Shown here piece by piece: positions 1 to 16,387 of a stretch of DNA of 64,000 bases. The first letter of the stretch is position 1. Every line of letters begins with the position of its first letter. The stretch comes from an uncultured Clostridia bacterium (lineage in GTDB: Bacteria > Bacillota > Clostridia > UBA1212 > UBA1255). A model generated the notes under the pieces. That model had not been told where the DNA came from and searched no databases. It saw nothing but the letters and a program-made list of their open reading frames with translations. The stretch spans positions 1,591 through 65,590 of the forward strand of contig CANQOI010000003.1 in assembly GCA_947625435.1 (NCBI GenBank). Direction: 5' to 3'. The position numbers and the translations under genes were made by a program.

Positions 1-1219
1 TGTTGAAGATGCCCTTTATGACCTCGAGCTGATTGCGCCCGCGCTGCGGCTCCTCTCCCGGTATGGATTTTCTCTCGCGGCAGAACACGAGCGCCTTCCA
101 TCCGTCCATATAGTTCATGCCCTCGCTGAAGTAGACAGGCTCGCCCGTAAAATATGAGGTATACGAGTACTTCGAATATGCCTCTATCCCTCCGAGCGCA
201 TCCACTATTTTCTCAAGAGACGTAAAATTGACTCTTATCCAGTGGTCTATGTGTATCCCCTTGTACACATTCTGCTCAAGGGTGGCGATAGAAACGGAGC
301 AGTCGTTGTTGCCGTATATGCCGGCATGCGTGAGCTTGTCATAAGCGTCGCCCGTAACTCCGGGGAACTGAACGTATGCATCTCTCGGTATGGTAACGAG
401 CAATATCTTGTGAGTGTTCGGATTCACGGCCATCACTATGTTGACATCGCTCCTGCTCTTCTGATTTATGCTGCCGGAAACGTCTATGCCGCTTATATAA
501 AGTACAAACGGCCTTTCCGTAAGGGGCCCGTTGGGCGTCGCACCGGTCTGCCCGCTGTCCTGACCGGGATCGGTCTCTATATTTATTTCGACATCAATGT
601 CGTCCAGTATCCTGACATAGTTATCTATATTGTCACCGTTGTCGGCGTAAAAATCCCTGCGCATTCCGAAGAAATTCGTATCCATGAGTATCGCGCGCGT
701 TTCATCGCTGTTCATGAATGCGTTCCACATATCGTCGTAGCTGTCGTACGCGACAATGTTTATTGTGTGGCTCAGTCTTGCGGCGAGTCCGTCCATAGCT
801 TTCTTTATGGCATCAAAATCGTGATTGTTCTCCACGCCTATCTTATCGTTTGCAATGTCTTCTATCTTCTCTGCGCTGTCGTCAAGCTTGACTACAACGT
901 GATATTTGACAATATATGTCGATCCGGGCGTCGTCACTTTGTCTATGCCGCGGTTAAAAGGATTCACGTACTTAAATGACAGTACCGCAAGTACGACCGA
1001 CATGAGCAGTGAAAATACCATGCCTACCGCAACCAGCGGACGCGATCTTGATATGACGAGCACAGCCGATATTATCAACAAGAGCAGAAGTATGAGCACG
1101 ACAAAAAAGATATAAACGCTCCTGAGTATATCTGTTTTTATTATGCAAACGACAGCTGTTATAGAAAAGATCAGCTGGAGCAGAAAACCTATGATACCTG
1201 TTATCTTGATATTTTTCAT
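1..1219 (-). CDS. LytR-CpsA-Psr (LCP) family cell-envelope polymer transferase, partial (start at 1219, C-terminus beyond window edge)
   Basis: I translated the minus strand from the ATG at 1219 myself, since the track gives no M-to-stop ORF here. The product runs MKNIKITGIIGFLL... with a TM helix, then an LCP-like core (NIVMAVNPNTHKILLVTIPRDAYVQFPG...DKLTHAGIYG...IDHWIRVNFTSLEKIVDALGGIE). The plus-strand ORF 242-979 is antisense to this gene. Confidence 0.75.
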   Translation of the reverse strand, partial: MKNIKITGIIGFLLQLIFSITAVVCIIKTDILRSVYIFFVVLILLLLLIISAVLVISRSRPLVAVGMVFSLLMSVVLAVLSFKYVNPFNRGIDKVTTPGSTYIVKYHVVVKLDDSAEKIEDIANDKIGVENNHDFDAIKKAMDGLAARLSHTINIVAYDSYDDMWNAFMNSDETRAILMDTNFFGMRRDFYADNGDNIDNYVRILDDIDVEINIETDPGQDSGQTGATPNGPLTERPFVLYISGIDVSGSINQKSRSDVNIVMAVNPNTHKILLVTIPRDAYVQFPGVTGDAYDKLTHAGIYGNNDCSVSIATLEQNVYKGIHIDHWIRVNFTSLEKIVDALGGIEAYSKYSYTSYFTGEPVYFSEGMNYMDGWKALVFCRERKSIPGEEPQRGRNQLEVIKGIFN

Positions 1220-1410
1220 TTGTTATTACCTTCCGTTTCACATCGCGTACACAGGCACGCATGCATAGCTTTGTGCGTGCGTATCAAGACGCAGTGCTTA
1301 GATTAGTCCCATATACATGATTTGTCAAGTTAAAAACAGGTGACGGAAAATCACGATCATGTTTGACCTCTTTAATGTTTTATGTTATATTTCGCGATGG
1401 AGTGATTTAA

Positions 1411-1926
1411 TTGTATTCAAATTGGTATGTTATACAGGTACTTTCTAATAACGAATACAGGCTGTGCAGCAAGATAAACAACCGCATAGACCGCAGTCTG
1501 TACGCGGAATGTTTTGTTCCGCAGGCCGAGTATGTATATAAGTCGAACGGGAACGTCCATACGCGCGTAAGGCCGCTGTTTCCCGGATACATTTTTGTCA
1601 TAACCGATACGGTGGAGGATTTCTACAATCGACTCAGATTGATAGACGGCTTCAAGCGTTTTCTGAAGGACGGGAATTTTTTTACGTCCATAACAAACGA
1701 GGAGGCCGCATTTATCGCGGGTGTGACGGACAATGAGCACAGCGCCAGCATGTCCGAGGGGTATATACTCGATTCAAAGGTTTACATCACATCGGGTCCT
1801 CTCATGGGCAAGGAGGGCGCCATCAAGAAGATCGACCGTCACAAGAGGATCGCCCTCATCGAATTTTCTTTTATGGGCAATCCCGTCCAGATAAGGATGC
1901 CGCTCGAGATCGTGAGCAAGCTTTGA
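1411..1926 (+). CDS. NusG-family specialised paralog (LoaP/UpxY-like transcription antiterminator)
   Basis: 171 aa. N-terminal NGN-like WYVIQV motif and C-terminal KOW-like GPLMGKEGAIKKIDRHKRIALIEF. Divergent from the LCP gene. Confidence 0.6.
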   Translation: MYSNWYVIQVLSNNEYRLCSKINNRIDRSLYAECFVPQAEYVYKSNGNVHTRVRPLFPGYIFVITDTVEDFYNRLRLIDGFKRFLKDGNFFTSITNEEAAFIAGVTDNEHSASMSEGYILDSKVYITSGPLMGKEGAIKKIDRHKRIALIEFSFMGNPVQIRMPLEIVSKL

Positions 1927-2013
1927 TACGATGCTGCGCCCGGCGTGCCTCCCCATGCATTTTCATCATAAAATAATATAAATAATGTATGTGAAATGCA
2001 GGAGGTAAAATGT

Positions 2014-2535
2014 ATGCGCACCACTCGCATCTGTCTTGTTGACAAATTTTTATTGGTCTTTTTGTCGGCACTTTTTATATACACGGCTTTCACACTTTTC
2101 ACGGGTACTATCGTAACGGAGAGCACTAAAACTGTCGACATACTGGTAAGAGCTTCATCGGCATCTATCTTCGGTTATTTTATAAGCAGCAATTTTGTAA
2201 AAAGTCACAGCGACAGCGGCATGGGCAGCCCGGAGGCCGCCGGCACCGATCAGGTTGCCGGCTGCGGCAATGACGGCACGGGCAGCAATGAAGGTACAGG
2301 CGGCACCGGCGCTGCGGAGACAGCAGCGCCTGCGCCGCAGGCGCCCGATCAAGTTAAATGCAATTCTCCGCAGGTGATAATCGTATCGCTGATAGGTCTT
2401 GTATCCATGATACTGATGTTCCTGTCAAACAAATACGCCGATGCCGCGCCGCACGCCGCAGCAACTATCGCGCAGCTCAGAGACTTTGTATCGGCGTGCG
2501 TCGGTTACCTCGTGAGCTGCGGCAAGTCTCACTGA
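2014..2535 (+). CDS. hypothetical membrane protein with Gly/Thr/Ala-rich low-complexity linker
   Basis: The ORF track starts this ORF at 1996, but the ATG at 2014 sits 8 nt after AGGAGG. Two hydrophobic segments flank a GTGGTGAAETAAPAPQAP low-complexity stretch. Confidence 0.4.
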   Translation: MRTTRICLVDKFLLVFLSALFIYTAFTLFTGTIVTESTKTVDILVRASSASIFGYFISSNFVKSHSDSGMGSPEAAGTDQVAGCGNDGTGSNEGTGGTGAAETAAPAPQAPDQVKCNSPQVIIVSLIGLVSMILMFLSNKYADAAPHAAATIAQLRDFVSACVGYLVSCGKSH

Positions 2536-2617
2536 CATCAGAATGAAATGCATGTAACGAAGCCTTTTGATCGTTCATAGTATAATTAGTGAATTGATTT
2601 TACAAGAGGCTGAGAAA

Positions 2618-3490
2618 ATGGACGCACAAAAGAAATACAGGTTTTCCGTAGCGGGCGGTGATATGAGAAATGCGGATCTTGCGGAGCTGCTCGCGGCGGG
2701 CGGACACGACGCGTACACATTCGCTTTGGGCAATGCCGGTAAAATGAGCGGCCGCTGCTCAAACCTCGGCGAAGCGGCGGCGCTTTGTGATATTTTGATA
2801 TGCCCGATACCTTTTTCGACCGACGGAATATATCTTAACGCTCCTTTTCACACGGAAAAGATCAGTCTTCAGTCCGTTTCAGACATTTTACGTGAGTCCG
2901 GATTCGGAGGATTGCTCATAGGCGGACGCATACCGCAGGAGATCGTATCAACAGGCGTTGATTGCGTTGATATCCTTATGAGAGACGACCTGGCCATACT
3001 GAATTCTGTCCCCACCGCCGAGGGCGCTCTGCAGATCGCCATGGAGGAGCTTCCGTATACTGTTCACGGCATTAAAGCCGTGGTGTGCGGGATGGGGCGC
3101 GTGGGCTCCGCTCTTGCAAGACTGCTCGTAAAAGCGGGCGCGGATGTCACTGTTTCCGTGAGGAGCAGCCGGGACGCGGCTGTCTGCGAAGCGGAATGTA
3201 TCAAAAGTACATCTTATGAGGATCTGGCCGACATTTTGCCGGACGCTATGCTCGTATACAATACGGTGCCGGCAAGGGTGATCGACAGCCGCCTTTTGGA
3301 CGCGGCCAACGAAAATGCTCTTTTTATCGATCTCGCGTCGGCGCCGGGAGGCATCGATTTTGACTATGCCGCTTCCAGACACCTGCGTGTTATACACGCT
3401 CTTTCTCTTCCCGGGAAGGTGGCCCCGGCAGGTGCGGCTCAGATTCTGCAAAAGGTTATATTCAACGTTCTTCGCGAGAAAAATATGTGA
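2618..3490 (+). CDS. dpaA: dipicolinate synthase subunit A (SpoVFA/DpaA)
   Basis: Rossmann motif VCGMGRVGSALARLL. Strong similarity to B. subtilis SpoVFA (NSVPTAEGALQIAMEEL..., LASAPGGIDF..., LSLPGKVAPAGAAQIL). The ATG at 2618 follows GAGGCTGAGAAA. The spoVFA-spoVFB gene order is conserved. Confidence 0.85.
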   Translation: MDAQKKYRFSVAGGDMRNADLAELLAAGGHDAYTFALGNAGKMSGRCSNLGEAAALCDILICPIPFSTDGIYLNAPFHTEKISLQSVSDILRESGFGGLLIGGRIPQEIVSTGVDCVDILMRDDLAILNSVPTAEGALQIAMEELPYTVHGIKAVVCGMGRVGSALARLLVKAGADVTVSVRSSRDAAVCEAECIKSTSYEDLADILPDAMLVYNTVPARVIDSRLLDAANENALFIDLASAPGGIDFDYAASRHLRVIHALSLPGKVAPAGAAQILQKVIFNVLREKNM

Positions 3491-3514
3491 TTTTTTATAT
3501 GAGGGGTTGGTAAA

Positions 3515-4099
3515 ATGTTCGAATGTTTCGATGGGCTGCGCGTCGGGCTCGCCGTAACGGGCTCGTTCTGCACTCATAAAAATATTGCCGCCGTTGCTGA
3601 CAATCTTGTTAAGCGCGGCGCCGTTGTTTTTCCGATACTGTCATATGCCTCCTCTGAAACGTCTACGAGATTCATGTCAAGAGAGGAGCTGTATGATACG
3701 CTCGTGAGCATCACGGGGCACGAGCCCATTTGCACTATAAAGGAAGCGGAGCCTATCGGTCCCAAGAAGCTGCTCGATGTGGTGGCCGTCGTGCCCTGCA
3801 CGGGCAATACTATTTCTAAGCTCGCAAATTCCATTACCGACACGCCTGTTCTTATGGCGTGCAAGTCGCATCTGCGAAATAACAGGCCGATCGTCATTGC
3901 GGTCTCTACCAATGACGGTCTGTCAGGCAATGCCAAAAACATAGGTACGCTGCTGGCCATGAAGAATTTCTTTTTTGTTCCCTTCAGGCAGGACGACAGC
4001 GTTAAGAAGCCTTTTTCTCTCATGGCCGATTTTTCGCTTGTGAACGAGACTATCGCCATGGCTCTCGAGGGCTCCCAGCTGCAGCCTATCCTGCTGTAG
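3515..4099 (+). CDS. dpaB: dipicolinate synthase subunit B (SpoVFB/DpaB, flavoprotein)
   Basis: 194 aa. GLAVTGSFCTH..., PCTGNTISKLANSITDTPVLMACKSHLRNNRPIVIAVSTNDGL, FFVPFRQDD and QLQPIL are near-identical to SpoVFB motifs. Confidence 0.9.
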   Translation: MFECFDGLRVGLAVTGSFCTHKNIAAVADNLVKRGAVVFPILSYASSETSTRFMSREELYDTLVSITGHEPICTIKEAEPIGPKKLLDVVAVVPCTGNTISKLANSITDTPVLMACKSHLRNNRPIVIAVSTNDGLSGNAKNIGTLLAMKNFFFVPFRQDDSVKKPFSLMADFSLVNETIAMALEGSQLQPILL

Positions 4100-4180
4100 G
4101 CTGTCGCCGCAGGCTGTTCTTCTGCGGGCTGTTCCGCTAGGGCTGTTCCGCTGCGGGCAGGGCGGGGTAAAATGCAATAA

Positions 4181-4220
4181 GGCGGCCGCTCACGCGCGCG
4201 GCCGCCCCGGGGTTTATATA
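4181..4220. terminator. GC-rich hairpin between convergent dpaB and glpQ-like genes; likely bidirectional terminator
   Basis: Stem GGCGGCCGC (4181-4189), 8-nt loop, then GCGGCCGCC (4198-4206), followed by CCGGGGTTTATATAATATTTT. It sits between two convergent genes. Confidence 0.5.
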
Positions 4221-4225
4221 ATATT

Positions 4226-4975
4226 TTACTCGTGCATGCCGTTTTTACGCAGCATATCCAGCACTCTGTCGGGAACGTTCGTTATTATTCCGGTTACGCC
4301 GAGCTCCATCGCGCGCTCTATGTCCTGCGGTGCGTCGACTGTCCACACGTTCACGTCTATACCGTTTTCACGGCACTTGTCCACTATTTCTTTATCCATG
4401 CAGTTTATCTCGGGATGTATGATATCCGCCTTATAGCTCCTGACAAATGCCACTGTCTCGTCCGGCGTCATTTTATGCCCGTACAGGAGCGCCGTCCTGA
4501 GATCGGGATGTGCTTCTTTGAGTTCTTTAAGCGACTTGTGGTCAAAGCTCGATATTATGGTGCGCTCCACACATGAATGTTTCACAAGTGAGTCGTACAG
4601 ATGATCAAACGCGAACGGCCTGTCGTCTTTCGGCATGAGCGGCTTTAATTCTATGTTTATCACACGCATGCCGTCCACTATATCGAGGAATTCTTCCAAT
4701 GTGGCTATGTGTGTGCCTTTGTATTTTTCGTCTGTACGTACCCCGAAGTCGTACTGCATGAGCTCTTCGTAGGTCATGTCGCATATCTCGCCCGTACCTG
4801 TCGACATTCTGTTTATATTGCCGTCGTGGCTCAGTACGTATATGTTGTCTTTTGTAAGACGTATATCGTTTTCGACACCGTCGGCTCCCATTTCAACCGC
4901 AAGTCTGAATGACGGCGCAGTGTTTTCCGGCGCGTAAGCCGAAGCGCCTCTGTGCGCCTGTACGTTTATCCTCAT
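4226..4975 (-). CDS. glycerophosphodiester phosphodiesterase (GDPD family)
   Basis: 249 aa. N-terminal HRGASAYAPENTAPSFRLAVEMGADGVENDIRLTKDNIYVLSHD is a typical GDPD/GlpQ-UgpQ signature. Confidence 0.8.
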   Translation of the reverse strand: MRINVQAHRGASAYAPENTAPSFRLAVEMGADGVENDIRLTKDNIYVLSHDGNINRMSTGTGEICDMTYEELMQYDFGVRTDEKYKGTHIATLEEFLDIVDGMRVINIELKPLMPKDDRPFAFDHLYDSLVKHSCVERTIISSFDHKSLKELKEAHPDLRTALLYGHKMTPDETVAFVRSYKADIIHPEINCMDKEIVDKCRENGIDVNVWTVDAPQDIERAMELGVTGIITNVPDRVLDMLRKNGMHE

Positions 4976-5119
4976 TTCAGCTACCTCCCGTTTAGTTCTT
5001 TTATACGGGACGAATTATAGTCTTTAATACTCATATTATCAAGATTTTTATTCCGCACCGGCGGCGGCGATAAATCAGTTATGGATTTATAAACTAAATA
5101 TTGTAAAATTTTTCTGTGA

Positions 5120-5165
5120 TTTTGCCTTTATAATTTGACAATCCGGTTATAATATGATAGGATAG
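5120..5165 (+). promoter_or_regulatory. candidate sigma-A-type promoter region for the ATPase/RloB module
   Basis: TTGACA at 5135-5140 and TATAAT at 5148-5153 cannot both be used because the spacing is wrong. The alternatives are TTGACA-17-TAGGAT, or a weak -35 with TATAAT. A strong RBS (GAGAGGAG) lies 8 nt before the ATG at 5194. Confidence 0.3.
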
Positions 5166-5193
5166 CAATGTAAAAAAGAGAGGAGATCATTAT

Positions 5194-6402
5194 ATGATCT
5201 GTCAATTTTCATTCAGGAATTTTATGTCATATAAAAATGAGGCTGTATTTGATTTCCAGGCAGCAGCTATTCCCGAGTTGTCCGACAGCGTTATTACGGG
5301 GGATAAGATGTCTGATCTTCTCCCGGCCTGCGTGATATACGGCCCAAACGGAGGCGGAAAGTCTAATCTGCTCAAGGCATTTGCCTGCCTTGTTTGTACT
5401 GTTGTAAAGCCCGTTGCAGATCTCGGAAAGACAAGGGAGGCTTTAATATTGCAGCTTGGGGCAGACTGCATTCCGTTTTTGCTCGATGACAATTCGCGGG
5501 ATGAGAGCACCATGTTCCGAGTTTATTTCCGCACTGACGGCAGCGAATACCGGTACAGCTTGGCTATAAATAAAGACGAGATAGTATCCGAATCTCTTTC
5601 ATGGAGAAATATCGGAGGGAAGAAAACAGGCGTTGTCTTTATAAGAAACTTTAGTGACATAGACCTCGGAGCCAGCATTAATAAGACAAGTGTCAACAAA
5701 CAAGTTAACCCCAAGATGCCTTATCTGTCTTTCCTTGCTATCAATTATGATTTTCCGGTCATAGCAGAGGTAATATCATGGTTTGAATCATGTATTATTC
5801 AAAGTTATGCCAATACGCATGTCGACAGCAGGATATTCTTTACAGATGAGAGCAACAAAAAGTCGATCATCCGAGCTTTGAATGATCTGGATATTGATAT
5901 CGCCGATTACAGATTCAGTGATGACAAGAAGCAAATGTATACTGTCAGAACAGTAAATGAAAAATCATATGAACTGCCTTTCGAATACGAATCCGACGGC
6001 ACAAGAAAGCTGCTTACAGCTCTTCCTATCATACTGATCGCACTTCGTTACGGAAGATTTGTTGTTATAGATGAGCTGGATGCCAAACTTCATCCGAAGC
6101 TCCTTCGTTATATAATCAAGCTCTTTCACAACCCCGAGATCAATAAAAACGGAGCCCAGTTGCTTTACACCTCTCACGATCTGACTACCATGAAGAATGA
6201 TCTGTTCCGCAGAGATGAGATATGGTTTGCATGTGAAAATGATTCTCATGAGAGTGAAATATATTCATTATATGATATTCGCGACGAAAATGACAAACAC
6301 GTCAATAATACCGCCGCATACGATAAGCAGTATATAGAAGGAAGATACGGCGCCGATCCTTACCTGCAGAATATTTTAGGAGGCGAATGGAATGAGTCTT
6401 AA
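5194..6402 (+). CDS. ABC-type/AAA_21-like ATPase (RloA/AbiLi-like, OLD-family ATPase-domain-like); candidate anti-phage system ATPase
   Basis: 402 aa. RecF/SMC-like N-terminus (FSFRNFMSYKNEAVFDF), Walker A (GPNGGGKSNLLKA), signature-like ESDGTRKLL, Walker B/D-loop (RFVVIDELDAKLHP) and H-loop (LYTSHD). A 60-mer sampled inside the island gave ~35% GC, against ~52% for one sampled in nifJ. Confidence 0.8.
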   Translation: MICQFSFRNFMSYKNEAVFDFQAAAIPELSDSVITGDKMSDLLPACVIYGPNGGGKSNLLKAFACLVCTVVKPVADLGKTREALILQLGADCIPFLLDDNSRDESTMFRVYFRTDGSEYRYSLAINKDEIVSESLSWRNIGGKKTGVVFIRNFSDIDLGASINKTSVNKQVNPKMPYLSFLAINYDFPVIAEVISWFESCIIQSYANTHVDSRIFFTDESNKKSIIRALNDLDIDIADYRFSDDKKQMYTVRTVNEKSYELPFEYESDGTRKLLTALPIILIALRYGRFVVIDELDAKLHPKLLRYIIKLFHNPEINKNGAQLLYTSHDLTTMKNDLFRRDEIWFACENDSHESEIYSLYDIRDENDKHVNNTAAYDKQYIEGRYGADPYLQNILGGEWNES

Positions 6403-7069
6403 GCCGACTAAAAAAACGGATCTTGGCAAGGACTGGCTTAAAGGCCGTGAGGCGCGGTCAACAAGAGTAAGACTCAATCCCGAATATCATCTTATTGTCA
6501 CTGAAGGAATTGATACAGAGCCGAGATATTTTGAAGCTATAAAAAACGAGATAAATAAGAATTTCAAAGACCGTATCAGCTTCGAAATAATCGGTACGGG
6601 AGATAATACAATCAGTCTTTTCAAAAAAGCTAAGTCCATCGTTGACAAAAGTCCCAATGGATTCAAGCACGTTTGGATCGTATACGATACCGACGACTTT
6701 CCACGGGAAAACATAAATCAAACTTTTGAGTTATGTAAGTCAAGCTCCACCGACGAAACAAAGTATCATGCTTTATGGTCTAATCAATGTATTGAACTCT
6801 GGTTCCTGCTTCACTTTGCCTACTATCATTCGGACATACACAGAACTGAGTATTGGCCGAAATTGACTGAACACCTAAAAAAAATCAATGCCGGAGAGTA
6901 TACAAAGGATCGCGATGATATGTATCTGATTTTGAAGCCGTTTGTTGATACTGCAATAAAAAATGCAAAAAAACTTGCATTTAGAAATCAAGGAAAAACA
7001 CCGGCAGAATCAGCCCCAGGCACTGAGGTATATCAGATCATTGAGATGCTTAAACCGTTTCTAAACTAA
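6392..7069 (+). CDS. RloB-family protein (TOPRIM/OLD-nuclease-like); partner of the ATPase
   Basis: 225 aa. N-terminal HLIVTEGIDTEPRYFEAIK matches the RloB I(V)CEGEKTEPNYF motif. HVWIVYDTDDF and ALWSNQCIELWFLLHF match the RloB WIVFDxDD and NPCFElWlllHf motifs. The start overlaps the ATPase stop by 11 nt, and AGGAGG lies 9 nt upstream. Confidence 0.8.
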   Translation: MSLKPTKKTDLGKDWLKGREARSTRVRLNPEYHLIVTEGIDTEPRYFEAIKNEINKNFKDRISFEIIGTGDNTISLFKKAKSIVDKSPNGFKHVWIVYDTDDFPRENINQTFELCKSSSTDETKYHALWSNQCIELWFLLHFAYYHSDIHRTEYWPKLTEHLKKINAGEYTKDRDDMYLILKPFVDTAIKNAKKLAFRNQGKTPAESAPGTEVYQIIEMLKPFLN

Positions 7070-7087
7070 ATGGATAGGAGATCACAC

Positions 7088-7267
7088 ATGAATGTAACCT
7101 TTGTAAATCCCGGAGTGGATTATATGATTTCGCGGATCATGGAGTCCCAATCCGAAGGTGAGTCCGCATTTTGGTCAGACCCTTTATTTCATTTCTTTCC
7201 TAAACTCGACAAAGCCCATGTCGACAGTCTTCCTTTTTCAACGATCTGCTGTGTAATGTCACTATGA
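7088..7267 (+). CDS. hypothetical small protein (59 aa) in the defence-island operon
   Basis: The ATG at 7088 is preceded by GGAG with a 7-nt spacer. The reading frame is open from the RloB stop. It is AT-rich and I recognise no domain. Confidence 0.3.
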   Translation: MNVTFVNPGVDYMISRIMESQSEGESAFWSDPLFHFFPKLDKAHVDSLPFSTICCVMSL

Positions 7268-7662
7268 ATCCGATCGAACCGCGTTTTCTCAAGGAGCATC
7301 GCTTTGATGTTTTTTATCTGAACAGCGAAAAAGGAGCTATCGGTGAAAGTATACATGAAATCGTGCACTTTATGTGGTTTTATGTATGGAATCAGTTGTT
7401 CGGTGACGATTACGATGAGTACGAGCGACCCTCGCTTAACCGGCTCAGTTCAATCAATCCTTACTTTCCCGGAGAAAACGGAGGATGTATATATCCCTGT
7501 TTCTTTGATATGAAGGTGAACGGTGTGCTGATACCGGATACGCTCAATACCATGTATAAGTCTCAGAGTATTGAAAATTTCATGCGCAACAGTTTTGCTT
7601 ATTGCAAGGAACACGAGACTGAAATCAGAGAGCACATGATCAAATCAAACGGAGCGGTATGA
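7264..7662 (+). CDS. hypothetical 132-aa protein with HExxH motif (possible small metallopeptidase-like protein)
   Basis: An ATGA overlap with the preceding ORF suggests translational coupling. HEIVH falls at residues 31-35 (GESIHEIVHFMWF), and there is a Cys pair (GGCIYPCFF). A terminator hairpin follows. Confidence 0.35.
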   Translation: MNPIEPRFLKEHRFDVFYLNSEKGAIGESIHEIVHFMWFYVWNQLFGDDYDEYERPSLNRLSSINPYFPGENGGCIYPCFFDMKVNGVLIPDTLNTMYKSQSIENFMRNSFAYCKEHETEIREHMIKSNGAV

Positions 7663-7675
7663 TAAATTCCCGTTA

Positions 7676-7709
7676 AGGAACGGCATGACCGAGATCATGC
7701 CGTTCCTTC
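7676..7709. terminator. strong hairpin terminating the island operon (also lies 3' of convergent nifJ)
   Basis: Perfect 14-bp stem AAGGAACGGCATGA / TCATGCCGTTCCTT with a 6-nt loop, followed on the plus strand by TCAGAATTTTATTGATTTTTC. Confidence 0.55.
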
Positions 7710-7736
7710 AGAATTTTATTGATTTTTCTTTACCGT

Positions 7737-10700
7737 TTACGCCTCGTACAGATCTCTCAGCTTGAGCAGATGCTCATACTTAGCCTTGGCGGCATCAGCA
7801 GCCTTGGCAAAGAGCTCCTCTGCCCTCTCCGGGAACGCCTGCTTCAGGCGGCTGTAACGCGTTTCACTCTGTATGAAGTCGATATAGCTCTCCGTAGGAG
7901 CCTTGCAATCGATCGTAAGAGGATTCTTGCCCTCAGCCTTGAGCGCAGGGTTGAAACGGAATGTCTGCCAATATCCGGCGGCAACAGCCTTCTTCATCTC
8001 GGACTGGCAGTTCGTCATGCCGCCCTTGACACCGTGCATTTCACAGGGAGCATATCCTATCACAATGGAAGGACCGTGATAAGCCTCCGCCTCCGTAAGA
8101 GCCTTTATAGTCTGGTTCATATCTGCGCCCATTGCTATCTGAGCCACATAAACGTAACCGTAGGACATGGCGATCTCGGCAAGGTTCTTCTTGCCTATGG
8201 ACTTGCCTGCCGCGGCAAACTGAGCTACCTGACCTATCTGGCTCGCCTTGGACGCCTGTCCGCCGGTATTGGAGTAAACCTCTGTATCAAATACCATCAC
8301 GTTTACATCCTCTCCCGAAGCCAGAACATGGTCGAGTCCGCCGAAGCCTATATCATATGCCCATCCGTCGCCGCCGAATATCCATACGGACTTCTTGGCA
8401 AGATATTCCTTGCTCGCAAGTATCGTCTTGCGCTCCTCACAGTCGCAGTCAAGTGTTTCGAGCTTTGCTATAAGCTTTGCGGCAGGCTCTGCATTCGCCT
8501 TGCCGTCATCCTTTGTATCAAGGAATGCGGTGCAGAGAGCCTTCACTTCATCATCGGAAGTCTTGTCGGCAATACGCTCAACACATGCTATGAGCCTGTC
8601 TCTTATGGCCTTCTGACCTAAGAATATTCCGAGTCCGTGCTCCGCATTGTCCTCAAAGAGGCTGTTGCCCCATGCCGGTCCGCGGCCTGAGTCACGGTTT
8701 ACAGTATAAGGTGTGGCAGGCGCCGAGCCGCCCCATATGGAAGAGCATCCGGTAGCATTTGAAATATACATGCGCTCGCCGAAGAGCTGTGTTATAAGTC
8801 TTGCATATGATGTCTCCGCACAGCCTGCGCAGGAGCCTGAGAATTCAAGCAGCGGCTGGTTGAACTGGCTGCCCTTTACCGAGAAATCGCTGAAGGATGT
8901 GGGCTTCTTCGTGACCGTAGCCACAGTATAATCGAATGCCGCCTGCTGATCCTTCTGAGATTCCTGAGATACCATGCGAAGAGCCTTTTCCTTGGCGGGG
9001 CACACATTTACGCACAGTCCGCATCCCATACAGTCAAGCGGGCTTATCGAAACCGTGAATGTGTATTCCTCGCAGCCCTTGCCCTTCATCTGTACCTTCT
9101 TTGTAGATGCCGGAGCACCGGCTGCCTCCTCCGCGTTCATGACGAACGGACGGATCGTGGCATGCGGGCATACGAAGGAGCACTGGTTACACTGTATACA
9201 ATTCTCGGGTATCCACTCAGGAACGTCCACGGCAACTCCGCGCTTTTCAAATGCGGCGGAGCCCTGCGGGAACGTACCGTCAGCTCTGTCCTTAAATACC
9301 GATACGGGCAGAGAATCGCCCTGCATCATGCCCACGGGCTGAAGTATCTCTTTCACAAATCTGGCAAGCTCCGGAGACTTACTGTTGACATCGCGCTCCT
9401 CTTTTACAACGGGAAGCGTCTTCCATGACTCGGGAACGTCGATCTTAACTATCGCGTCAACGCCCGCGTCTATCGCCTTATAGTTCATTTCAACTACGGC
9501 TTCGCCCTTCTTCATATATGACTTCTTGGCTGCCGCCTTCATATATTCGACCGCCGTATCTATCGGTAAAATGTTAGCGAGCGCGAAGAATGCGGACTGG
9601 AGTATAGTATTCGTCCTCTTGCCCATTCCTATCTCTCTCGCCTTGTCGATAGCATTTACTATATAGAACTTAATGTCGTTTTCCGCGATATATCTCTTGA
9701 CCTCTGCCGGCAGGTGCTTTTCAAGCTCCTCCGGAGTCCACTGACAGTTAAGGAGGAACGTACCGCCCGGCTTAACATCATTTACTATCTTATATCCCTT
9801 GAGCATGTATGACGGATTGTGGCATGCAACGAAGTCGGCCTTTGTTATATAGTACGACGACTTTATGGGCTTATCTCCGAAGCGCAGGTGCGATATAGTA
9901 ACGCCGCCCGTCTTCTTTGAGTCATACTGGAAGTATGCCTGTATGAATTTGTCCGTATGGTCGCCTATTATCTTTATCGAATTCTTGTTCGCGCCCACCG
10001 TTCCGTCTCCGCCGAGACCCCAGAACTTGCAGCTTATTGTGCCTGCGGGAGCCGTATCCGGAGCGGGCTTCTCCGCAAGGGAGTGATGCGTGACATCGTC
10101 CACTATTCCTATGGTGAAATTTCCCTTAGGCTCGTCGGCCTTGAGATTCTCATATACGGCAAATATGCTCGGCGGAGGCGTATCCTTGGAGCCGAGTCCG
10201 TAGCGTCCGCCTACTACCTTGGCATTTACGCCCTTGGAAGCAAGAGCGGCGGCAACATCGAGATAAAGAGGCTCGCCCAAGGAGCCGGGCTCCTTCGTCC
10301 TGTCGAGCACTGCTATCTTCTTAGCTGTTGAAGGTATAGCCTCTATGAGCTTCTCTGCGCTGAAGGGTCTGTAAAGTCTTACCTTAACAAGACCTACCTT
10401 CTCGCCGCGGGCATTCATATAATCTATTACTTCCTCAGCCACATCGCAAATAGAGCCCATGGCAACTATGACCCTGTCGGCATCGGGAGCGCCGTAATAG
10501 TTGAACAGCTTATAATTCGTTCCTATCCTGGCATTTACCTGATTCATATAATCCTCGACCACAGCGGGAAGTGCCTCATAATAGCTGTTGCACGCCTCTC
10601 TGTGCTGGAAGAATATATCTCCGTTCTCTGCGCTGCCTCTTAATACAGGATGCTCGGGATTGAGAGCTCTCTTTCTGAACTCCGCAAGAGCGTCCCTGTC

Positions 10701-11285
10701 TATCATGGAAGCAAGCTCGTCGTAATCCCATGCTTCTATCTTCTGTATCTCATGAGATGTGCGGAATCCGTCGAAGAAATTGATAAAAGGAACTCTGCCC
10801 TTTATCGCGGACAGATGCGCAACGGCGCCCAGATCCATGACCTCCTGAGGATTCGTGCATGCCAGCATCGCAAAGCCTGTCTGACGGCACGCATATATAT
10901 CGGAATGATCTCCGAAAATGTTGAGTGCGTGAGACGCAACGCATCTTGCGGAAACGTGTATAACGCAGGGAAGCAGCTCGCCCGCTATTTTATACATGTT
11001 AGGTATCATAAGAAGCAGTCCCTGGGATGCGGTATATGTCGTTGTAAGAGCGCCCGCCGCAAGGCTTCCGTGAACGGTGCCGGCGGCGCCTGCCTCTGAC
11101 TGCATTTCAATTACTTTAACTTTATCTCCGAAAATATTCTTAAGACCCGTAGCCGACCATGAGTCCGTCAGCTCAGCCATAACACTGGACGGCGTTATAG
11201 GATAAATACTCGCGACCTCTGTAAAAGCATAGCTCACATGAGCGGCGGCTGTATTTCCGTCCATTGATATCTTCTTTCTGGACAT
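7737..11285 (-). CDS. nifJ: pyruvate:ferredoxin (flavodoxin) oxidoreductase
   Basis: 1182 aa single-chain PFOR. The N-terminus (MDGNTAAAHVSYAFTEVASIYPITPSS), two 4Fe-4S ferredoxin motifs (CIQCNQCSFVCPHA, CMGCGLCVNVCP) and the TPP-binding domain are all recognisable. Confidence 0.95.
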   Translation of the reverse strand: MSRKKISMDGNTAAAHVSYAFTEVASIYPITPSSVMAELTDSWSATGLKNIFGDKVKVIEMQSEAGAAGTVHGSLAAGALTTTYTASQGLLLMIPNMYKIAGELLPCVIHVSARCVASHALNIFGDHSDIYACRQTGFAMLACTNPQEVMDLGAVAHLSAIKGRVPFINFFDGFRTSHEIQKIEAWDYDELASMIDRDALAEFRKRALNPEHPVLRGSAENGDIFFQHREACNSYYEALPAVVEDYMNQVNARIGTNYKLFNYYGAPDADRVIVAMGSICDVAEEVIDYMNARGEKVGLVKVRLYRPFSAEKLIEAIPSTAKKIAVLDRTKEPGSLGEPLYLDVAAALASKGVNAKVVGGRYGLGSKDTPPPSIFAVYENLKADEPKGNFTIGIVDDVTHHSLAEKPAPDTAPAGTISCKFWGLGGDGTVGANKNSIKIIGDHTDKFIQAYFQYDSKKTGGVTISHLRFGDKPIKSSYYITKADFVACHNPSYMLKGYKIVNDVKPGGTFLLNCQWTPEELEKHLPAEVKRYIAENDIKFYIVNAIDKAREIGMGKRTNTILQSAFFALANILPIDTAVEYMKAAAKKSYMKKGEAVVEMNYKAIDAGVDAIVKIDVPESWKTLPVVKEERDVNSKSPELARFVKEILQPVGMMQGDSLPVSVFKDRADGTFPQGSAAFEKRGVAVDVPEWIPENCIQCNQCSFVCPHATIRPFVMNAEEAAGAPASTKKVQMKGKGCEEYTFTVSISPLDCMGCGLCVNVCPAKEKALRMVSQESQKDQQAAFDYTVATVTKKPTSFSDFSVKGSQFNQPLLEFSGSCAGCAETSYARLITQLFGERMYISNATGCSSIWGGSAPATPYTVNRDSGRGPAWGNSLFEDNAEHGLGIFLGQKAIRDRLIACVERIADKTSDDEVKALCTAFLDTKDDGKANAEPAAKLIAKLETLDCDCEERKTILASKEYLAKKSVWIFGGDGWAYDIGFGGLDHVLASGEDVNVMVFDTEVYSNTGGQASKASQIGQVAQFAAAGKSIGKKNLAEIAMSYGYVYVAQIAMGADMNQTIKALTEAEAYHGPSIVIGYAPCEMHGVKGGMTNCQSEMKKAVAAGYWQTFRFNPALKAEGKNPLTIDCKAPTESYIDFIQSETRYSRLKQAFPERAEELFAKAADAAKAKYEHLLKLRDLYEA

Positions 11286-11322
11286 AATTACTCCTCCTTT
11301 GTTTATGAGAGTTAAAACGGTA

Positions 11323-12252
11323 TCACGCTCTTGCCTTTATTATCTTCTCGGCTATCGCCTCGGCCGTAAGGCCGTATTTCTCAAGCAGAGCGGCCGGAGT
11401 ACCGGATTTTCCGAATTTTTCCTCAACACCTATCATTTTAACCTTGCAGGGGTAGTTCTCGGAAAGAGCTTCGCATACGGCTCCGCCGAGTCCGCCTGTT
11501 ATATTATGCTCCTCAACCGTTACTATAAAGCCTGTTTCCTTCGCTGCCTTAACGAGTATATCCTTGTCTATGGGCTTTATCGTATGCATATCTATAACTC
11601 TTGCGTTTATTCCCTTTGAAGCGAGTATATCGGCCGCCTTGAGGGATTCCTGAACCATGAGTCCGGTGGCGACTATCGTAAGATCGTTTCCTTCTCTTAT
11701 CTCCACGCCCTTGCCTATCTCAAATTTGAATGTTGCGGGATCGTGGACTGCCTCAACGGCGAGTCTTCCCAGTCTCACATATACCGGTCCGTCATGATCT
11801 ATCGCGGCTTTGATCGCCTGATTGGTCTCCGCTTCATCGCAGGGGCTTAAAACTACCATGTTGGGAAGCGCTCTCATTATGGCAAGATCCTCGAGGCACT
11901 GATGCGAAGCTCCGTCCTCGCCTACGGTAAGTCCCGCATGCGTAGCGCATACCTTTACGTTAAGCTTCGGATAGCATATCGAGTTTCTTATCTGCTCGCA
12001 TGCACGCTCCGATGCGAAAATAGCAAATGTGCTGGCAAATACTATCTTACCTGTCGTTGCCAGTCCCGCTGCCACGCACATCATGTCGGCTTCGGCTATA
12101 CCCATGTTGAAATGTCTCTCCGGATATACCTTCTTGAATGTATCCGTCTTTGTGGACTTTGATAAGTCGGCATCGAGAACCACTATTCTCTCATCTGCGC
12201 CGTACTGCGCCAAAGCCGCTCCGTAAGCTTCTCTTGTTGCTACTTTACCCAT
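11323..12252 (-). CDS. transketolase, C-terminal (pyrimidine-binding) subunit
   Basis: 309 aa. GIAEADMMCVAAGLATTGKIVFASTFAIF and GEDGASHQ motifs. Split transketolase arrangement. Confidence 0.9.
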   Translation of the reverse strand: MGKVATREAYGAALAQYGADERIVVLDADLSKSTKTDTFKKVYPERHFNMGIAEADMMCVAAGLATTGKIVFASTFAIFASERACEQIRNSICYPKLNVKVCATHAGLTVGEDGASHQCLEDLAIMRALPNMVVLSPCDEAETNQAIKAAIDHDGPVYVRLGRLAVEAVHDPATFKFEIGKGVEIREGNDLTIVATGLMVQESLKAADILASKGINARVIDMHTIKPIDKDILVKAAKETGFIVTVEEHNITGGLGGAVCEALSENYPCKVKMIGVEEKFGKSGTPAALLEKYGLTAEAIAEKIIKARA

Positions 12253-12257
12253 TTATT

Positions 12258-13118
12258 TCAAGCCTCCTCTGCTATTTCCTTATCTATTTCGGCCATAAGA
12301 GCGTCCAGCTCCGCTATAGCCTGATCGCGCTGCTCCTGATTGGGAGCCGTTCCGTGCCATGCGTAATTGTTTTCCATGAATGAAACGCCCTTGCCCTTTG
12401 TGCACTTGCACACTACCATTGTGGGTTTTCCCTTAACTGTCTTGGCCGTCTCTATGGCGTCCTTTATCTGCTTGTGATCGTGTCCGTCGACAGTTATCAC
12501 ATTCCATCCGAATGCGGCAAATTTATCCGCTATGGGCTCAGGGTTCATTACGTCCGTTATGTTTCCGTCTATCTGGAGTCCGTTATAGTCAACAAAAGCC
12601 GTTAAGTTGTCGAGCTTATAGTGAGCCGCAGCCATGGCCGCTTCCCATACCTGACCTTCTTCAAGCTCTCCGTCTCCCAGTATGGAATAAACTCTGTAAT
12701 CCTTCTTATCTATTTTACCGGCAAGAGCCATGCCTACCGATGTGGATATTCCCTGTCCGAGAGAACCTGTCGACATATCTACGCCCGGCACGTACGTCAT
12801 GCTCGGATGTCCCTCGAGATAGCTGTCGGCTTTACGGAATGTGTAAAGATCCTTCTCCGGGAAAAAGCCCTTGACCGCCAGTGTCGCGTAAAGCGCAGGC
12901 GCGCAGTGTCCCTTTGAAAGCACGAATCTGTCTCTGTTCGGATCCTTCGGGTTCTTGGGATCTACTCTCATCTCGTCGAAATAGAGAACCGTGAAAATAT
13001 CTGTGCACGACAGCGATCCGCCCGGATGCCCTGATTTTGCGGAAAATACTTCTTCAATGATGTATTTTCTGATCTGCGTAGCTTTCTTTCGTAAATCAAG
13101 CTCTTTGCGCTTGTCCAT
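12258..13118 (-). CDS. transketolase, N-terminal (TPP-binding) subunit
   Basis: 286 aa. SGHPGGSLS, GHCAPALYA, GSLGQG and ILGDGELEEG motifs. Confidence 0.9.
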   Translation of the reverse strand: MDKRKELDLRKKATQIRKYIIEEVFSAKSGHPGGSLSCTDIFTVLYFDEMRVDPKNPKDPNRDRFVLSKGHCAPALYATLAVKGFFPEKDLYTFRKADSYLEGHPSMTYVPGVDMSTGSLGQGISTSVGMALAGKIDKKDYRVYSILGDGELEEGQVWEAAMAAAHYKLDNLTAFVDYNGLQIDGNITDVMNPEPIADKFAAFGWNVITVDGHDHKQIKDAIETAKTVKGKPTMVVCKCTKGKGVSFMENNYAWHGTAPNQEQRDQAIAELDALMAEIDKEIAEEA

Positions 13119-13193
13119 AATTTAATCTCCTCCATATTTAAAATTTAACTCTTTATATATTGAGAGCTGCCGGAGTAAAATCCTCCCGCAGCT

Positions 13194-13634
13194 TCAATTT
13201 CTGTTTTCTATGGCTGTTATAGTATCAAGCCTCGCCTGATGTCTGCCACCCTCGTATTCCGCGTCGAACCACGCGTCAACTATCATCTTTGCAAGCTCCG
13301 TGCCCACTACGCGCGCTCCGAAGCAAAGTATGTTGGAATTGTTGTGAACCTTGGACATTTTAGCCGAAAAGGGTTCAGAGCAGCATGCCGCTCTTATTCC
13401 GTGCACTTTATTGGCGGCTATCGATATGCCTATGCCCGTCCCGCATATGAGTATTCCTCTCTCGCATTCACCCGAAGCGACGGCATTCGCAACCTCTTCC
13501 GCTTTCTCGGCATAATTGCTCGCTGTCGTGGACTCTGTACCGAAATCCCTGACCTCTACGCCCTTCGACTCGAGATGTGCTTTGATCACTTCTTTGAGCG
13601 CGACTGCGGTATGATCATTTCCGATCGCATACAT
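13194..13634 (-). CDS. rpiB: ribose-5-phosphate isomerase B
   Basis: RpiB/LacAB family (MYAIGNDHTAVALKEVI..., ICGTGIGISIAANKVHGIRAA). The likely true start is the internal Met at 13634, preceded by AGGAGG. The track ORF 13194-13748 extends upstream. Confidence 0.85.
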   Translation of the reverse strand: MYAIGNDHTAVALKEVIKAHLESKGVEVRDFGTESTTASNYAEKAEEVANAVASGECERGILICGTGIGISIAANKVHGIRAACCSEPFSAKMSKVHNNSNILCFGARVVGTELAKMIVDAWFDAEYEGGRHQARLDTITAIENRN

Positions 13635-13802
13635 GTTTATCCTGCCTCCTGTTGTATAATATCGTAAAATATAAGCGGTTATCTCATATCTAACGCGCCG
13701 TATTTCCCATTTGCTTATTATACACTCCCGGCAAGTAAAATTCAACATAAATACCGCCGCCCGCGGCGCCGCATGTGCCGCGGAGCCGGTATGCGCCTTG
13801 CC

Positions 13803-14054: not shown

Positions 14055-14130
14055 GATATGAAGCCTCCTTATACCGATAACTTACGGGTAATTACATATC
14101 ATATACATCGGCATTTCTTCATATTATGTT

Positions 14131-15114: not shown

Positions 15115-15117
15115 TCT

Positions 15118-16217: not shown

Positions 16218-16309
16218 GATGCATCCTCCTCCGTACGTATCTGTAAAATTATATGAAGTTGTACCTTGCAGTATGTTCATGCATTTGTCGGGAAATATTT
16301 CCCAAACAT

Positions 16310-16338: not shown

Positions 16339-16387
16339 ATATTCGCATTCAATCGAATGATACTTATATATAAAGGAGATAATACGT

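What the first reader, a model, noticed from the sequence alone, without database searches (positions are those of the whole stretch)
4976..7736. Low-GC ~2.7 kb insertion between conserved metabolic genes carrying a candidate anti-phage module
The segment between the GDPD gene (ends 4975) and nifJ (ends 7737) is markedly AT-richer than its flanks. One sampled 60-mer was ~35% GC, against ~52% inside nifJ. It encodes a 4-ORF plus-strand operon running opposite to both flanking genes, with its own promoter-like elements and a strong terminator hairpin. Composition and context point to a horizontally acquired defence islet. Its content is an ATPase, an RloB/TOPRIM-like protein and two unknown small proteins.
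Basis: partly seen in the sequence, partly recalled or inferred. Interest (0 to 1): 0.85.

Follow-up and report, generated by a model that had tools for sequence, protein, structure and literature searches.

The report
AbiL phage-defence cassette plus broken gene
The AT-rich stretch holds an ordinary, already catalogued two-gene anti-phage system (AbiL: an ATPase plus an RloB nuclease-like protein) picked up from a mobile element, followed by the wreck of an unrelated metalloprotease-like gene rather than two extra defence proteins.

Summary
Window 4976-7736 is the most AT-rich stretch of the 64-kb window (GC 0.40 against 0.475). It carries plus-strand ORFs that run opposite to GDPD and nifJ.

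It is not a single 2.7-kb, four-gene insertion. The acquired unit is a 1,985-bp promoter-to-stop cassette (5085-7069). It encodes AbiLi (AAA_21 ABC-type ATPase, PADLOC AbiLi 1.5e-79) and AbiLii (Pfam RloB 3.7e-40). This cassette is about 80% identical in DNA (89% and 81% in protein) to copies inside integrase- and recombinase-bearing prophage-like elements. The homology edges are sharp. More distant relatives occur on 16 viral contigs.

The two "unknown small proteins" are the halves of one degraded gene. It belongs to an uncharacterised ~260-aa HExxH, zincin-like family. It is broken by a ~166-nt frameshifting deletion and a 45-nt in-frame deletion. This family is never found next to AbiL elsewhere.

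The left 109 bp is native GDPD promoter region. The hairpin (7675-7708) is not part of the cassette.

No empty site could be recovered. The TOPRIM nature of AbiLii rests on the literature and on motif placement. My fold searches were not specific.

Verdict: a new member of a known kind, of low interest.

The parts
4976..5084 (-). Native intergenic DNA upstream of GDPD. It includes a sigma-70-like promoter on the minus strand (TTGATA 5042-5037, 17 nt, TATAAT 5019-5014). It is not part of the acquired cassette.
   Evidence: Promoter scan scores 11 of 12 matches. Homology to the mobile-element cassettes starts only at about 5085.
5085..7069 (+). AbiL cassette: the acquired unit, running from upstream of its promoter to the AbiLii stop codon. 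GC 0.398, the lowest 2-kb stretch of the window.
   Evidence: blastn gives 79.5-81.4% identity, over 1,987-1,989 aligned columns in L179-L184 and to the contig end in the shorter L185, always starting at window 5085 and, in L179-L184, ending at 7069.
5086..5099 (+). Left copy of the 13/14 direct repeat at the cassette edge (TTTATAAACTAAAT).
   Evidence: the repeat finder family D9. The chance of such a repeat at both edges is about 5e-4 under a Markov model, and 2 of 1,668 in real-sequence controls. This is a post-hoc observation and the repeat is not conserved in the element copies.
5135..5163 (+). Cassette promoter: TTGACA, 17-nt spacer, extended -10 (TG-n-TAGGAT). The AGGAG ribosome-binding site follows at 5181-5185.
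   Evidence: Promoter scan scores 10 of 12 with TG. Both hexamers are invariant across the window and three element copies.
5194..6402 (+). abiLi: 402-aa ABC/Rad50-type ATPase. Walker A is GPNGGGKSN (residue 50), the signature-like motif is SDGT (267), Walker B is VVIDELD (290) and the H-loop is TSHD (326).
   Evidence: Pfam AAA_21 2.6e-29; PADLOC AbiLi 1.5e-79; AriA model weaker at 1.8e-34. It is 89% identical to the element copies, with dN/dS 0.055.
6392..7069 (+). abiLii: 225-aa RloB-family protein and presumed TOPRIM/OLD-like nuclease effector. It overlaps abiLi by 11 nt. Its AGGAGG ribosome-binding site is at 6378-6383.
   Evidence: Pfam RloB 3.7e-40 over the full model; PADLOC AbiLii 5.9e-27. 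The AF2 model has pLDDT 82, with four beta-alpha units. E38 follows beta1, D99-x-D101 follows beta3 and E135 follows beta4; D99, D101 and E135 are invariant and E38 nearly invariant (at least 90%) in 46 homologues.
7058..7071 (+). Right copy of the 13/14 direct repeat (TTTCTAAACTAAAT). It spans the AbiLii stop codon.
   Evidence: Homology to the element copies ends exactly at the TAA at 7067-7069. The element copies then continue into their own terminator hairpin.
7073..7669 (+). Degraded gene of an uncharacterised ~260-aa HExxH, zincin-like family. It is a separate module from the AbiL cassette. ORF3 (7088-7267) covers residues 1-49/50 followed by out-of-frame codons. ORF4 (7264-7662) starts at a conserved internal Met.
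7232..7244 (+). Junction of deletion 1, at 7243/7244. About 166 nt (3k+1) is lost between ~11-bp direct repeats (CCTTTTTCAA[A/C]G). This removes about 53 residues and shifts the frame.
   Evidence: Nucleotide alignment with L176 and L177. The frame changes from 2 to 1.
7437..7438 (+). Junction of deletion 2. A 45-nt in-frame loss removes the conserved KWILSEMVVE-x-(I/V)M(K/R)(D/E) segment, which includes the nearly invariant Glu of SEMVVE.
7675..7708 (.). Perfect 14-bp hairpin between the convergent plus-strand genes and nifJ. It is the probable shared terminator: a U-rich tail follows on the plus strand and a weaker one on the minus strand. It is not part of the AbiL cassette.
   Evidence: Inverted repeat I8. 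Folding gives -25.1 kcal/mol (plus strand, z -6.1) and -30.1 kcal/mol (minus strand, z -7.4). The element copies carry a different terminator right after RloB.

Best explanation
The interval is a composite of four pieces.

(1) 5085-7069 is a self-contained two-gene AbiL-type abortive-infection cassette with its own promoter. abiLi encodes an ABC/Rad50-like AAA_21 ATPase. abiLii, translationally coupled to it, encodes an RloB-family protein. The cassette was acquired horizontally from, or exchanged with, prophage-like integrative elements of gut Clostridia.

(2) It was joined directly, at its stop codon, to the ribosome-binding site of a zincin-like HExxH gene. That gene has since been wrecked by two microhomology-type deletions.

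(3) 4976-5084 is native GDPD upstream DNA.

(4) The hairpin at 7675-7708 terminates the convergent transcripts.

Likely mechanism, inferred by analogy with PARIS, OLD and Gabija and not shown here: the ATPase holds the RloB/TOPRIM-like nuclease inactive and senses an infection cue. On infection the nuclease is released or activated and cuts host or phage nucleic acid, aborting the infection.

Shown here: domain identities, intact catalytic-type motifs, strong purifying selection, cassette edges, and carriage on mobile elements and viral contigs. Inferred: nuclease activity, its target, the trigger, and the direction and mechanism of transfer.
For: Family identity: Pfam AAA_21 2.6e-29 and RloB 3.7e-40; PADLOC AbiLi 1.5e-79 and AbiLii 5.9e-27. 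The two genes overlap by 11 nt and each has a Shine-Dalgarno site.

Intactness: Walker A, Walker B and H-loop are present. The acidic E...DxD...E pattern sits at the strand ends of the AF2 model. AbiLi dN/dS against the element copies is 0.055.

Acquisition: it is the lowest-GC 2-kb stretch of the window (0.398 against 0.475 +/- 0.031), and it matches the GC of the elements (0.415-0.42). There is about 80% nucleotide identity across window 5085-7069 to L179-L184 (L185 ends earlier, at its contig end). Those loci carry a tyrosine integrase, serine recombinases and a cI/Cro-like HTH switch directly upstream of the pair. Sixteen IMG/VR viral contigs carry AbiLi relatives at 59-66% identity, 11 of them with the RloB gene adjacent. 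In Gemmiger formicilis the pair forms a chromosomal islet next to IS remnants. The nearest relatives of the host lack it at the GDPD locus.

Broken gene. It never co-occurs with AbiL.

Literature: AbiL is a two-component abortive-infection system grouped with the ABC-ATPase plus TOPRIM systems. AbiLii is described as an OLD/TOPRIM-like toxic effector (PMC10440598, PMC11464382, PMC13064643).
Against: No empty site or cassette-free strain was found, so insertion is inferred rather than seen.

Per-gene GC and GC3 deviations are moderate.

No recombinase or transposase lies next to the cassette in the window. No phenotype data exist for this clade.

The PADLOC AbiLii match covers only part of the model (positions 13-89 of 170).
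Confidence: 0.85

Rival explanations
1. It is a four-gene defence operon. ORF3 and ORF4 are genuine small accessory proteins of an extended AbiL variant, for example a protease-like regulator or sensor, co-transcribed with the pair and required for its function.
For: There is no terminator between the AbiLii stop and ORF3. ORF3 has a good ribosome-binding site (AGGAG at 7076-7080). ORF3 and ORF4 overlap by ATGA, which allows coupling. ORF4 keeps the HExxH motif. The same arrangement is 100% conserved in three metagenome samples. dN/dS against L176 is 0.14-0.22.
Against: Both ORFs align collinearly to single intact proteins of 245-262 aa. About 53 residues are missing, the frame changes, and a second 15-residue deletion removes a nearly invariant segment. 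None of the AbiL loci examined in elements, viral contigs or Gemmiger has this gene. None of the family's other loci has AbiL nearby. The low dN/dS reflects history before the lesions. The three samples are probably the same strain.
Confidence: 0.05
2. It is a type II toxin-antitoxin addiction module and not primarily a phage-defence system. AbiLii would be the toxin and the AAA ATPase its antitoxin, stabilising the mobile elements that carry the pair.
For: The NetFlax work classifies AAA (node D29) plus TOPRIM_OLD or RloB pairs inside the TA network and validated related pairs by toxicity-neutralisation assays (PMC10440598). The closest copies sit in integrative elements.
Against: This is largely the same molecular system under another name. 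The founding AbiL gives abortive infection (PMC13064643). In the window the pair is chromosomal, with no element left to stabilise. The two readings are not mutually exclusive.
Confidence: 0.08
3. The pair is ancestral to this lineage and the low GC is a gene-specific property. The mobile elements captured it from chromosomes like this one, so this locus saw no acquisition.
For: No empty site was found. Per-gene GC deviation is only -1.4 to -2.2 SD, and other genes in the window are as AT-rich. No recombinase is adjacent.
Against: The homology edges are sharp and coincide with promoter and stop codon. A foreign-looking junction lies at 7069/7070, where the cassette has lost the terminator it has elsewhere. 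Cassette GC equals element GC. The pair is 81-89% identical to element copies, while the flanking GDPD gene finds nothing closer than 74-75% outside this strain. The clade is scattered over viral contigs, elements and different chromosomal sites.
Confidence: 0.05

Closest known systems
AbiL (AbiLi/AbiLii) abortive-infection system of Lactococcus lactis plasmid pND861 (Deng et al. 1999), as modelled in PADLOC
   Same: It has the same two-gene, co-oriented, overlapping architecture. The first gene is an AAA_21/Rad50-like ABC ATPase and the second is an RloB-family protein. Both PADLOC models match (1.5e-79 and 5.9e-27). It is carried on mobile DNA.
   Different: The host is different (an uncultured gut Clostridia lineage) and the location is chromosomal. 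The proteins are diverged: tblastn against plasmids finds nothing above 32% identity, and no lactococcal hit appears among the best 25. The AbiLii model is matched only over positions 13-89 of 170. No phenotype is known.
RloA/RloB, the restriction-linked ORFs of Campylobacter jejuni type I R-M loci (Pfam PF13707 founders)
   Same: The second protein is a full-length PF13707 RloB match (3.7e-40) paired with an AAA ATPase. One plasmid hit to AbiLi is annotated RloA (H16).
   Different: No hsdR, hsdM or hsdS genes are adjacent. The flanks are GDPD and PFOR.
PARIS (AriA ABC ATPase plus AriB DUF4435/TOPRIM nuclease)
   Same: It has the same logic: a separate ABC ATPase sensor and a TOPRIM-class effector, and it is often carried by prophages or satellites. 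AbiLi also hits a PADLOC AriA model (1.8e-34). The literature places AbiL in the same AAA15/21 tree (PMC11464382).
   Different: The effector is RloB (PF13707), not DUF4435, and there is no AriB hit. No detectable sequence similarity between AbiLii and AriB is reported, and their predicted structures superpose poorly (PMC13064643). The trigger and the target (tRNA-Lys in PARIS) are unknown for AbiL.
Class 1 OLD (phage P2 Old, Thermus scotoductus OLD) and Gabija GajA
   Different: Those proteins are single fused polypeptides, and Gabija adds the GajB helicase. Here there are two separate proteins. hhalign to P2 Old is insignificant for AbiLii (0.2%) and weak for AbiLi (22%).
Zincin (HExxH) metalloproteases: M1 aminopeptidase catalytic domain, M30 lugdulysin, minigluzincins, and Wss1/SprT. 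This comparison is for the broken gene only.

Membership tests
AbiL (PADLOC/DefenseFinder sense) | Two adjacent, co-oriented genes matching the AbiLi and AbiLii models | tested here: met
   PADLOC AbiLi PDLC02335 at 1.5e-79 and AbiLii PDLC02337 at 5.9e-27. The genes overlap by 11 nt on the plus strand. The AbiLii match covers only model positions 13-89 of 170.
AbiL | The first component is an ABC/Rad50-type (AAA_21/AAA_15) ATPase with intact nucleotide-binding motifs | tested here: met
   Pfam AAA_21 2.6e-29, AAA_15 3.1e-08 and SMC_N 3.4e-07. Walker A, the SDGT motif, Walker B and the H-loop were located and lie at invariant columns in 20 homologues.
AbiL | The second component is an RloB-family protein (PF13707) | tested here: met
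   Pfam RloB 3.7e-40 (138.6 bits against a cut-off of 31.5), model positions 2-195 of 195.
AbiL | The second component has a TOPRIM/OLD-nuclease fold and active site | tested here: inconclusive
   [not shown]
AbiL | Confers abortive-infection phage resistance, with both genes required | not testable with these tools
   This needs phage challenge of a host expressing 5085-7069 and single-gene knock-outs.
PARIS | The effector is AriB (DUF4435, PF14491) | tested here: not met
   AbiLii has no DUF4435 or AriB hit in Pfam (even at E <= 10) or in PADLOC.
Gabija / class 1-2 OLD | ATPase and TOPRIM are fused in one polypeptide (plus the GajB helicase for Gabija) | tested here: not met
   There are two separate ORFs and no helicase in the interval.
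Type I R-M-linked RloAB | Embedded in an hsd (type I restriction-modification) locus | tested here: not met
   The neighbours are DpaA, DpaB, GDPD, PFOR, transketolase and RpiB.
Genomic island acquired by site-specific integration | An empty site in relatives, flanking att or target-site repeats, and an adjacent integrase or a tRNA | tested here: inconclusive
   No empty site is available. There is no tRNA in 1-20000 and no recombinase in the interval. A 13/14 direct repeat sits at both cassette edges (p about 5e-4 to 1e-3, post hoc) but is absent from the donor-like copies.

The most novel reading that the evidence does not exclude
The 1,985-bp promoter-to-stop AbiL unit may behave as a discrete, recombinase-independent 'defence cassette'. 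It would move between the moron slot downstream of the cI/Cro switch in prophage-like elements and chromosomal intergenic sites, by recombination at a short (~14-bp) sequence. The near-identical 14-mers at its two edges in this window would be the scar. On this reading the locus preserves the insertion junction, and it predicts the empty site (4976-5099 joined directly to 7072 onward, giving GDPD divergent from an intact zincin-like gene).
Probability: 0.12. Interest if true: 0.5.

Novelty: new member of a known kind. Interest (0 to 1): 0.18.

Why it matters
It matters little beyond annotation. The pair would be called automatically by PADLOC or DefenseFinder, and the family is very common: more than 7,400 AbiLi homologues at E <= 1e-20, and 1,397 RloB homologues at E <= 1e-10.

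There are three modest points of value.

(i) It corrects a tempting over-reading. A compositional trough plus co-oriented ORFs was taken as one four-gene system. In fact it is a two-gene cassette abutting a pseudogene.

(ii) It gives base-pair edges for an AbiL cassette shared between prophage-like elements and a chromosome. That is useful for anyone studying how small defence modules are exchanged.

(iii) AbiL's mechanism is still open (PMC13064643). This gut-Clostridia clade is compact and strongly conserved, so it could serve as an alternative model for biochemistry.

Tried and rejected
**Empty-site search.**
- Exact look-ups of GDPD and nifJ found only short contigs of the same strain, or nothing.
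- The genome and metagenome scans with GDPD found only relatives at 74-75% identity (L006, L086, L087). These keep GDPD-DpaB-DpaA but have no nifJ nearby.

**Testing the 14-mer repeat as an insertion scar.** I compared L176's upstream region with the window's left intergenic region. There is no convincing homology, so the repeat stays uncorroborated.

**Viral scan.** The scan with the single AbiLi protein found nothing. It succeeded only with an alignment.

**Structural and profile confirmation of TOPRIM for AbiLii.**
- PDB sequence and profile searches were empty.
- Foldseek was empty.
- hhalign against P2 Old was insignificant.
- I therefore do not claim to have shown the TOPRIM fold here.

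**An idea I withdrew.** I first thought the zincin-like family was broken in every lineage, which suggested recoding or phase variation. The exhaustive representative search shows that most members are intact at 245-262 aa. The earlier picture came from short contigs and the word-index search. The L176 frameshift lies in a poly-A run on a 3.6x-coverage contig and may be an assembly error.

**Other checks.**
- Rfam and tRNA scans of the interval found only a sub-threshold Gut-1 hit inside abiLi, and no tRNA.
- The organism name could not be recovered from the cluster tables.
Full report
**1. Observation**

A sliding GC profile shows a trough of 0.37-0.43 across 4800-7800, against 0.50-0.55 on both sides. 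Over the whole window (GC 0.476), the finding interval (0.403) and its 1,985-bp core (0.398) are the lowest of all equal-sized stretches. Only 0.05% and 0.08% of positions respectively are as low.

Per gene the contrast is more modest. Among 57 ORFs of at least 120 codons (GC 0.474 +/- 0.039; GC3 0.503 +/- 0.07):
- AbiLii has GC 0.388 and GC3 0.389.
- AbiLi has GC 0.418 and GC3 0.449.
- ORF4 has GC 0.421 and GC3 0.489.

The flanking genes are as described:
- GDPD is at 4226-4975 on the minus strand (Pfam GDPD 6e-50).
- A 1,182-aa PFOR/nifJ is at 7737-11285 on the minus strand.
- The wider neighbourhood is housekeeping: NusG-like, DpaA, DpaB, a split transketolase and RpiB.

Four plus-strand ORFs are present: 5194-6402, 6392-7069, 7088-7267 and 7264-7662.

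**2. The defence pair**

The 402-aa protein matches Pfam AAA_21 (2.6e-29) and the PADLOC AbiLi model (1.5e-79). It matches AriA, PtuA, HEC-01A and other ATPase models much more weakly. The 225-aa protein is a full-length Pfam RloB match (3.7e-40) and matches PADLOC AbiLii (5.9e-27). NCBIfam adds nothing.

The genes overlap by 11 nt and each has a Shine-Dalgarno site. Walker A (GPNGGGKSN), SDGT, Walker B (VVIDELD) and the H-loop (TSHD) are present at invariant alignment columns.

AbiLii is modelled with confidence (pLDDT 82). It forms four beta-alpha units with E38 after beta1, D99-x-D101 after beta3 and E135 after beta4; D99, D101 and E135 are invariant and E38 nearly invariant (at least 90%) in 46 homologues. 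That is the motif placement expected of a TOPRIM domain, from established knowledge (Aravind et al. 1998).

My attempts to recover that relationship directly were not specific:
- Foldseek finds nothing at E <= 1e-3.
- Sequence and profile searches of the PDB find nothing.
- hhalign against phage P2 Old is insignificant.

The TOPRIM/OLD assignment of RloB/AbiLii therefore rests on the literature:
- HHpred, in PMC10440598.
- The AAA15/21 tree, in PMC11464382.

Those papers also state that AbiL is a two-component abortive-infection system and that its mode of action is unresolved.

**3. Where the acquired unit begins and ends**

AbiLi has more than 7,400 homologues at E <= 1e-20. A tight group is 89% identical. 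Looking these up gives loci L179-L185, where the pair lies inside integrative, prophage-like elements. These carry a tyrosine integrase, serine recombinases and a cI/Cro-like trio of HTH genes immediately upstream. Downstream is variable cargo: Fic, DUF4417, two metallophosphatases and an RNA ligase.

blastn of these loci against the window gives a single match in each locus. In the six loci that contain the whole pair it always spans window 5085-7069, at about 80% identity over 1,987-1,989 aligned columns (the short contig L185 matches from 5085 to its end at 6861).

Base-level alignments show the two edges:
- **Left edge.** It lies at about 5085. The TTGACA-17-TG-n-TAGGAT promoter and the ribosome-binding site are conserved, so they belong to the cassette.
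- **Right edge.** It lies exactly at the AbiLii TAA. The element copies run on into their own GC-rich terminator hairpin. The window runs straight into a different sequence.

Further support:
- Cassette GC (0.398) resembles element GC (0.415-0.42) and not the host's.
- AbiLi is under strong purifying selection (dN/dS 0.055).
- Relatives at 59-66% identity occur on 16 IMG/VR viral contigs, 11 of them with RloB adjacent.
- In Gemmiger formicilis the pair forms a chromosomal two-gene islet beside IS66 and rve remnants.

This is good evidence that 5085-7069 is a mobile two-gene cassette. No empty site could be found:
- Exact look-ups return only the same strain.
- The nearest genomes (GDPD 74-75% identical) retain GDPD-DpaB-DpaA but have no nifJ or AbiL nearby.

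A 13/14 direct repeat (TTTATAAACTAAAT at 5086-5099; TTTCTAAACTAAAT at 7058-7071) sits at the two independently defined edges. Its chance probability is about 5e-4 under a Markov model, and it occurred in 2 of 1,668 real-sequence controls. I leave it as a possible junction scar.

**4. The 'two unknown small proteins'**

A homologue search with ORF4 returned proteins that were mostly longer than ORF4. Some of them begin with the ORF3 sequence.

Mapping against a composite protein and against the intact 261-aa P0306 shows:
- ORF3 covers residues 1-49/50.
- Residues ~50-102 are missing and the reading frame changes.
- The ORF4 frame (from 7228) covers residues 103-261.
- A further 15 residues are deleted within that stretch.

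At nucleotide level:
- The first lesion is a ~166-nt (3k+1) deletion between ~11-bp direct repeats, with its junction at 7243/7244.
- The second is a 45-nt in-frame deletion at 7437/7438. It removes the nearly invariant KWILSEMVVE... segment.
- The ORF4 ATG is a conserved internal Met that happens to overlap the out-of-frame ORF3 stop (ATGA).

The family has these properties:
- It has 495 clusters at 50% identity, mostly of 245-262 aa.
- It has no Pfam, NCBIfam or PHROG model.
- It carries an HExxH motif.

Its genomic neighbours differ in every genome examined and never include AAA_21 or RloB genes. Conversely, no AbiL locus examined has it.

DNA homology to the nearest copy (L176) covers only 7073-7669. 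It starts 4 nt after the AbiLii stop. dN/dS against L176 is 0.14-0.22, so the lesions are recent.

Whether this gene was resident when the cassette arrived or came with it is unresolved. I withdrew an earlier suspicion that the family is broken everywhere. That was a sampling artefact.

**5. The remaining pieces**

4976-5084 carries a strong minus-strand promoter-like site for GDPD and is not shared with the elements. The hairpin at 7675-7708 is real and very stable. It lies between convergent genes and is not part of the AbiL cassette. It probably terminates both the read-through abiL transcript and nifJ. No tRNA or credible Rfam family lies in the interval.

**6. Mechanism**

Shown here: an intact, selected ATPase plus RloB pair with its own conserved promoter, carried on mobile DNA.

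Inferred by analogy with PARIS, OLD and Gabija and from the cited literature: the ATPase acts as sensor and antitoxin, and the RloB protein is a metal-dependent nuclease effector that is unleashed on infection, giving abortive infection. The trigger, the target and the stoichiometry are unknown.

**7. Comparison and verdict**

All sequence-testable defining features of AbiL are met. The features of PARIS (DUF4435 effector), Gabija and class 1 OLD (fused protein, helicase), and R-M-linked RloAB (hsd context) are not met.

This is a new member of a known, widespread kind. Its extent (four genes, 2.7 kb) is wrong. Interest is low (0.18). The only mildly novel angle is the precisely bounded cassette with an edge repeat (probability about 0.12).

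Noticed in passing
[not shown]
   Followed up: partly
L168 7853-8450 (and L169-L175); L166 8001-8642; L167 7607-8480: Several other copies of the zincin-like gene carry independent lesions. L168 has a deletion of residues ~54-108 with a frameshift, seen in at least 14 samples. This is almost the same segment as is lost in the window. The Catenibacillus copy has an in-frame deletion of ~51 residues. L167 has a stop codon. The recurrent loss of the same segment suggests a deletion hotspot between short direct repeats.
   Followed up: partly
window 5086-5099 and 7058-7071: A 13/14 direct repeat sits exactly at the two edges of the AbiL cassette, which were defined independently by homology. Chance is about 5e-4 to 1e-3, though this was noticed post hoc. 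The repeat is not present in the mobile-element copies. It may be an insertion scar.
   Followed up: partly
L179 and L181-L184 (for example L181 54-18889): These are integrative, prophage-like elements with a tyrosine integrase, serine recombinases and a cI/Cro-like HTH switch. AbiL occupies the slot right after the switch. Variable cargo follows (Fic, DUF4417, two metallophosphatases, a PHA02142-type RNA ligase), which looks like a defence or moron hotspot.
   Followed up: no
L180 4489-5132: One element copy has a disrupted RloB gene. The AbiLii match is split over two frames and only 114 aa are called, while AbiLi is intact.
   Followed up: no
L203-L208 (Gemmiger formicilis), genes at about 6001-7880: An AbiLi/RloB pair 66% identical to the window's sits as a chromosomal two-gene islet next to IS66 and rve transposase remnants. 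It is seen on hundreds of contigs.
   Followed up: no
   Followed up: yes
window 800-1600; 13800-14800; 16249-16629: There are other AT-rich patches in the window (GC 0.40-0.43, 0.375-0.42, and one 126-aa ORF at GC 0.344 with no Pfam hit). ORFs 242-979, 1996-2535 and 14131-15114 also have no Pfam match.
   Followed up: no
L006 8502-10000 compared with window 4976-7736: Synteny with the nearest genome (Clostridia bacterium HGM11336) breaks exactly at the GDPD start codon. Downstream, GDPD-DpaB-DpaA is conserved. Upstream there are unrelated 462-aa and 448-aa genes in place of AbiL and nifJ.
   Followed up: partly
window 6213-6283 (plus strand): A sub-threshold Rfam Gut-1 sRNA match (27.4 bits against a gathering score of 50; E 0.026) lies inside the abiLi coding sequence. 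It is most likely chance.
   Followed up: no
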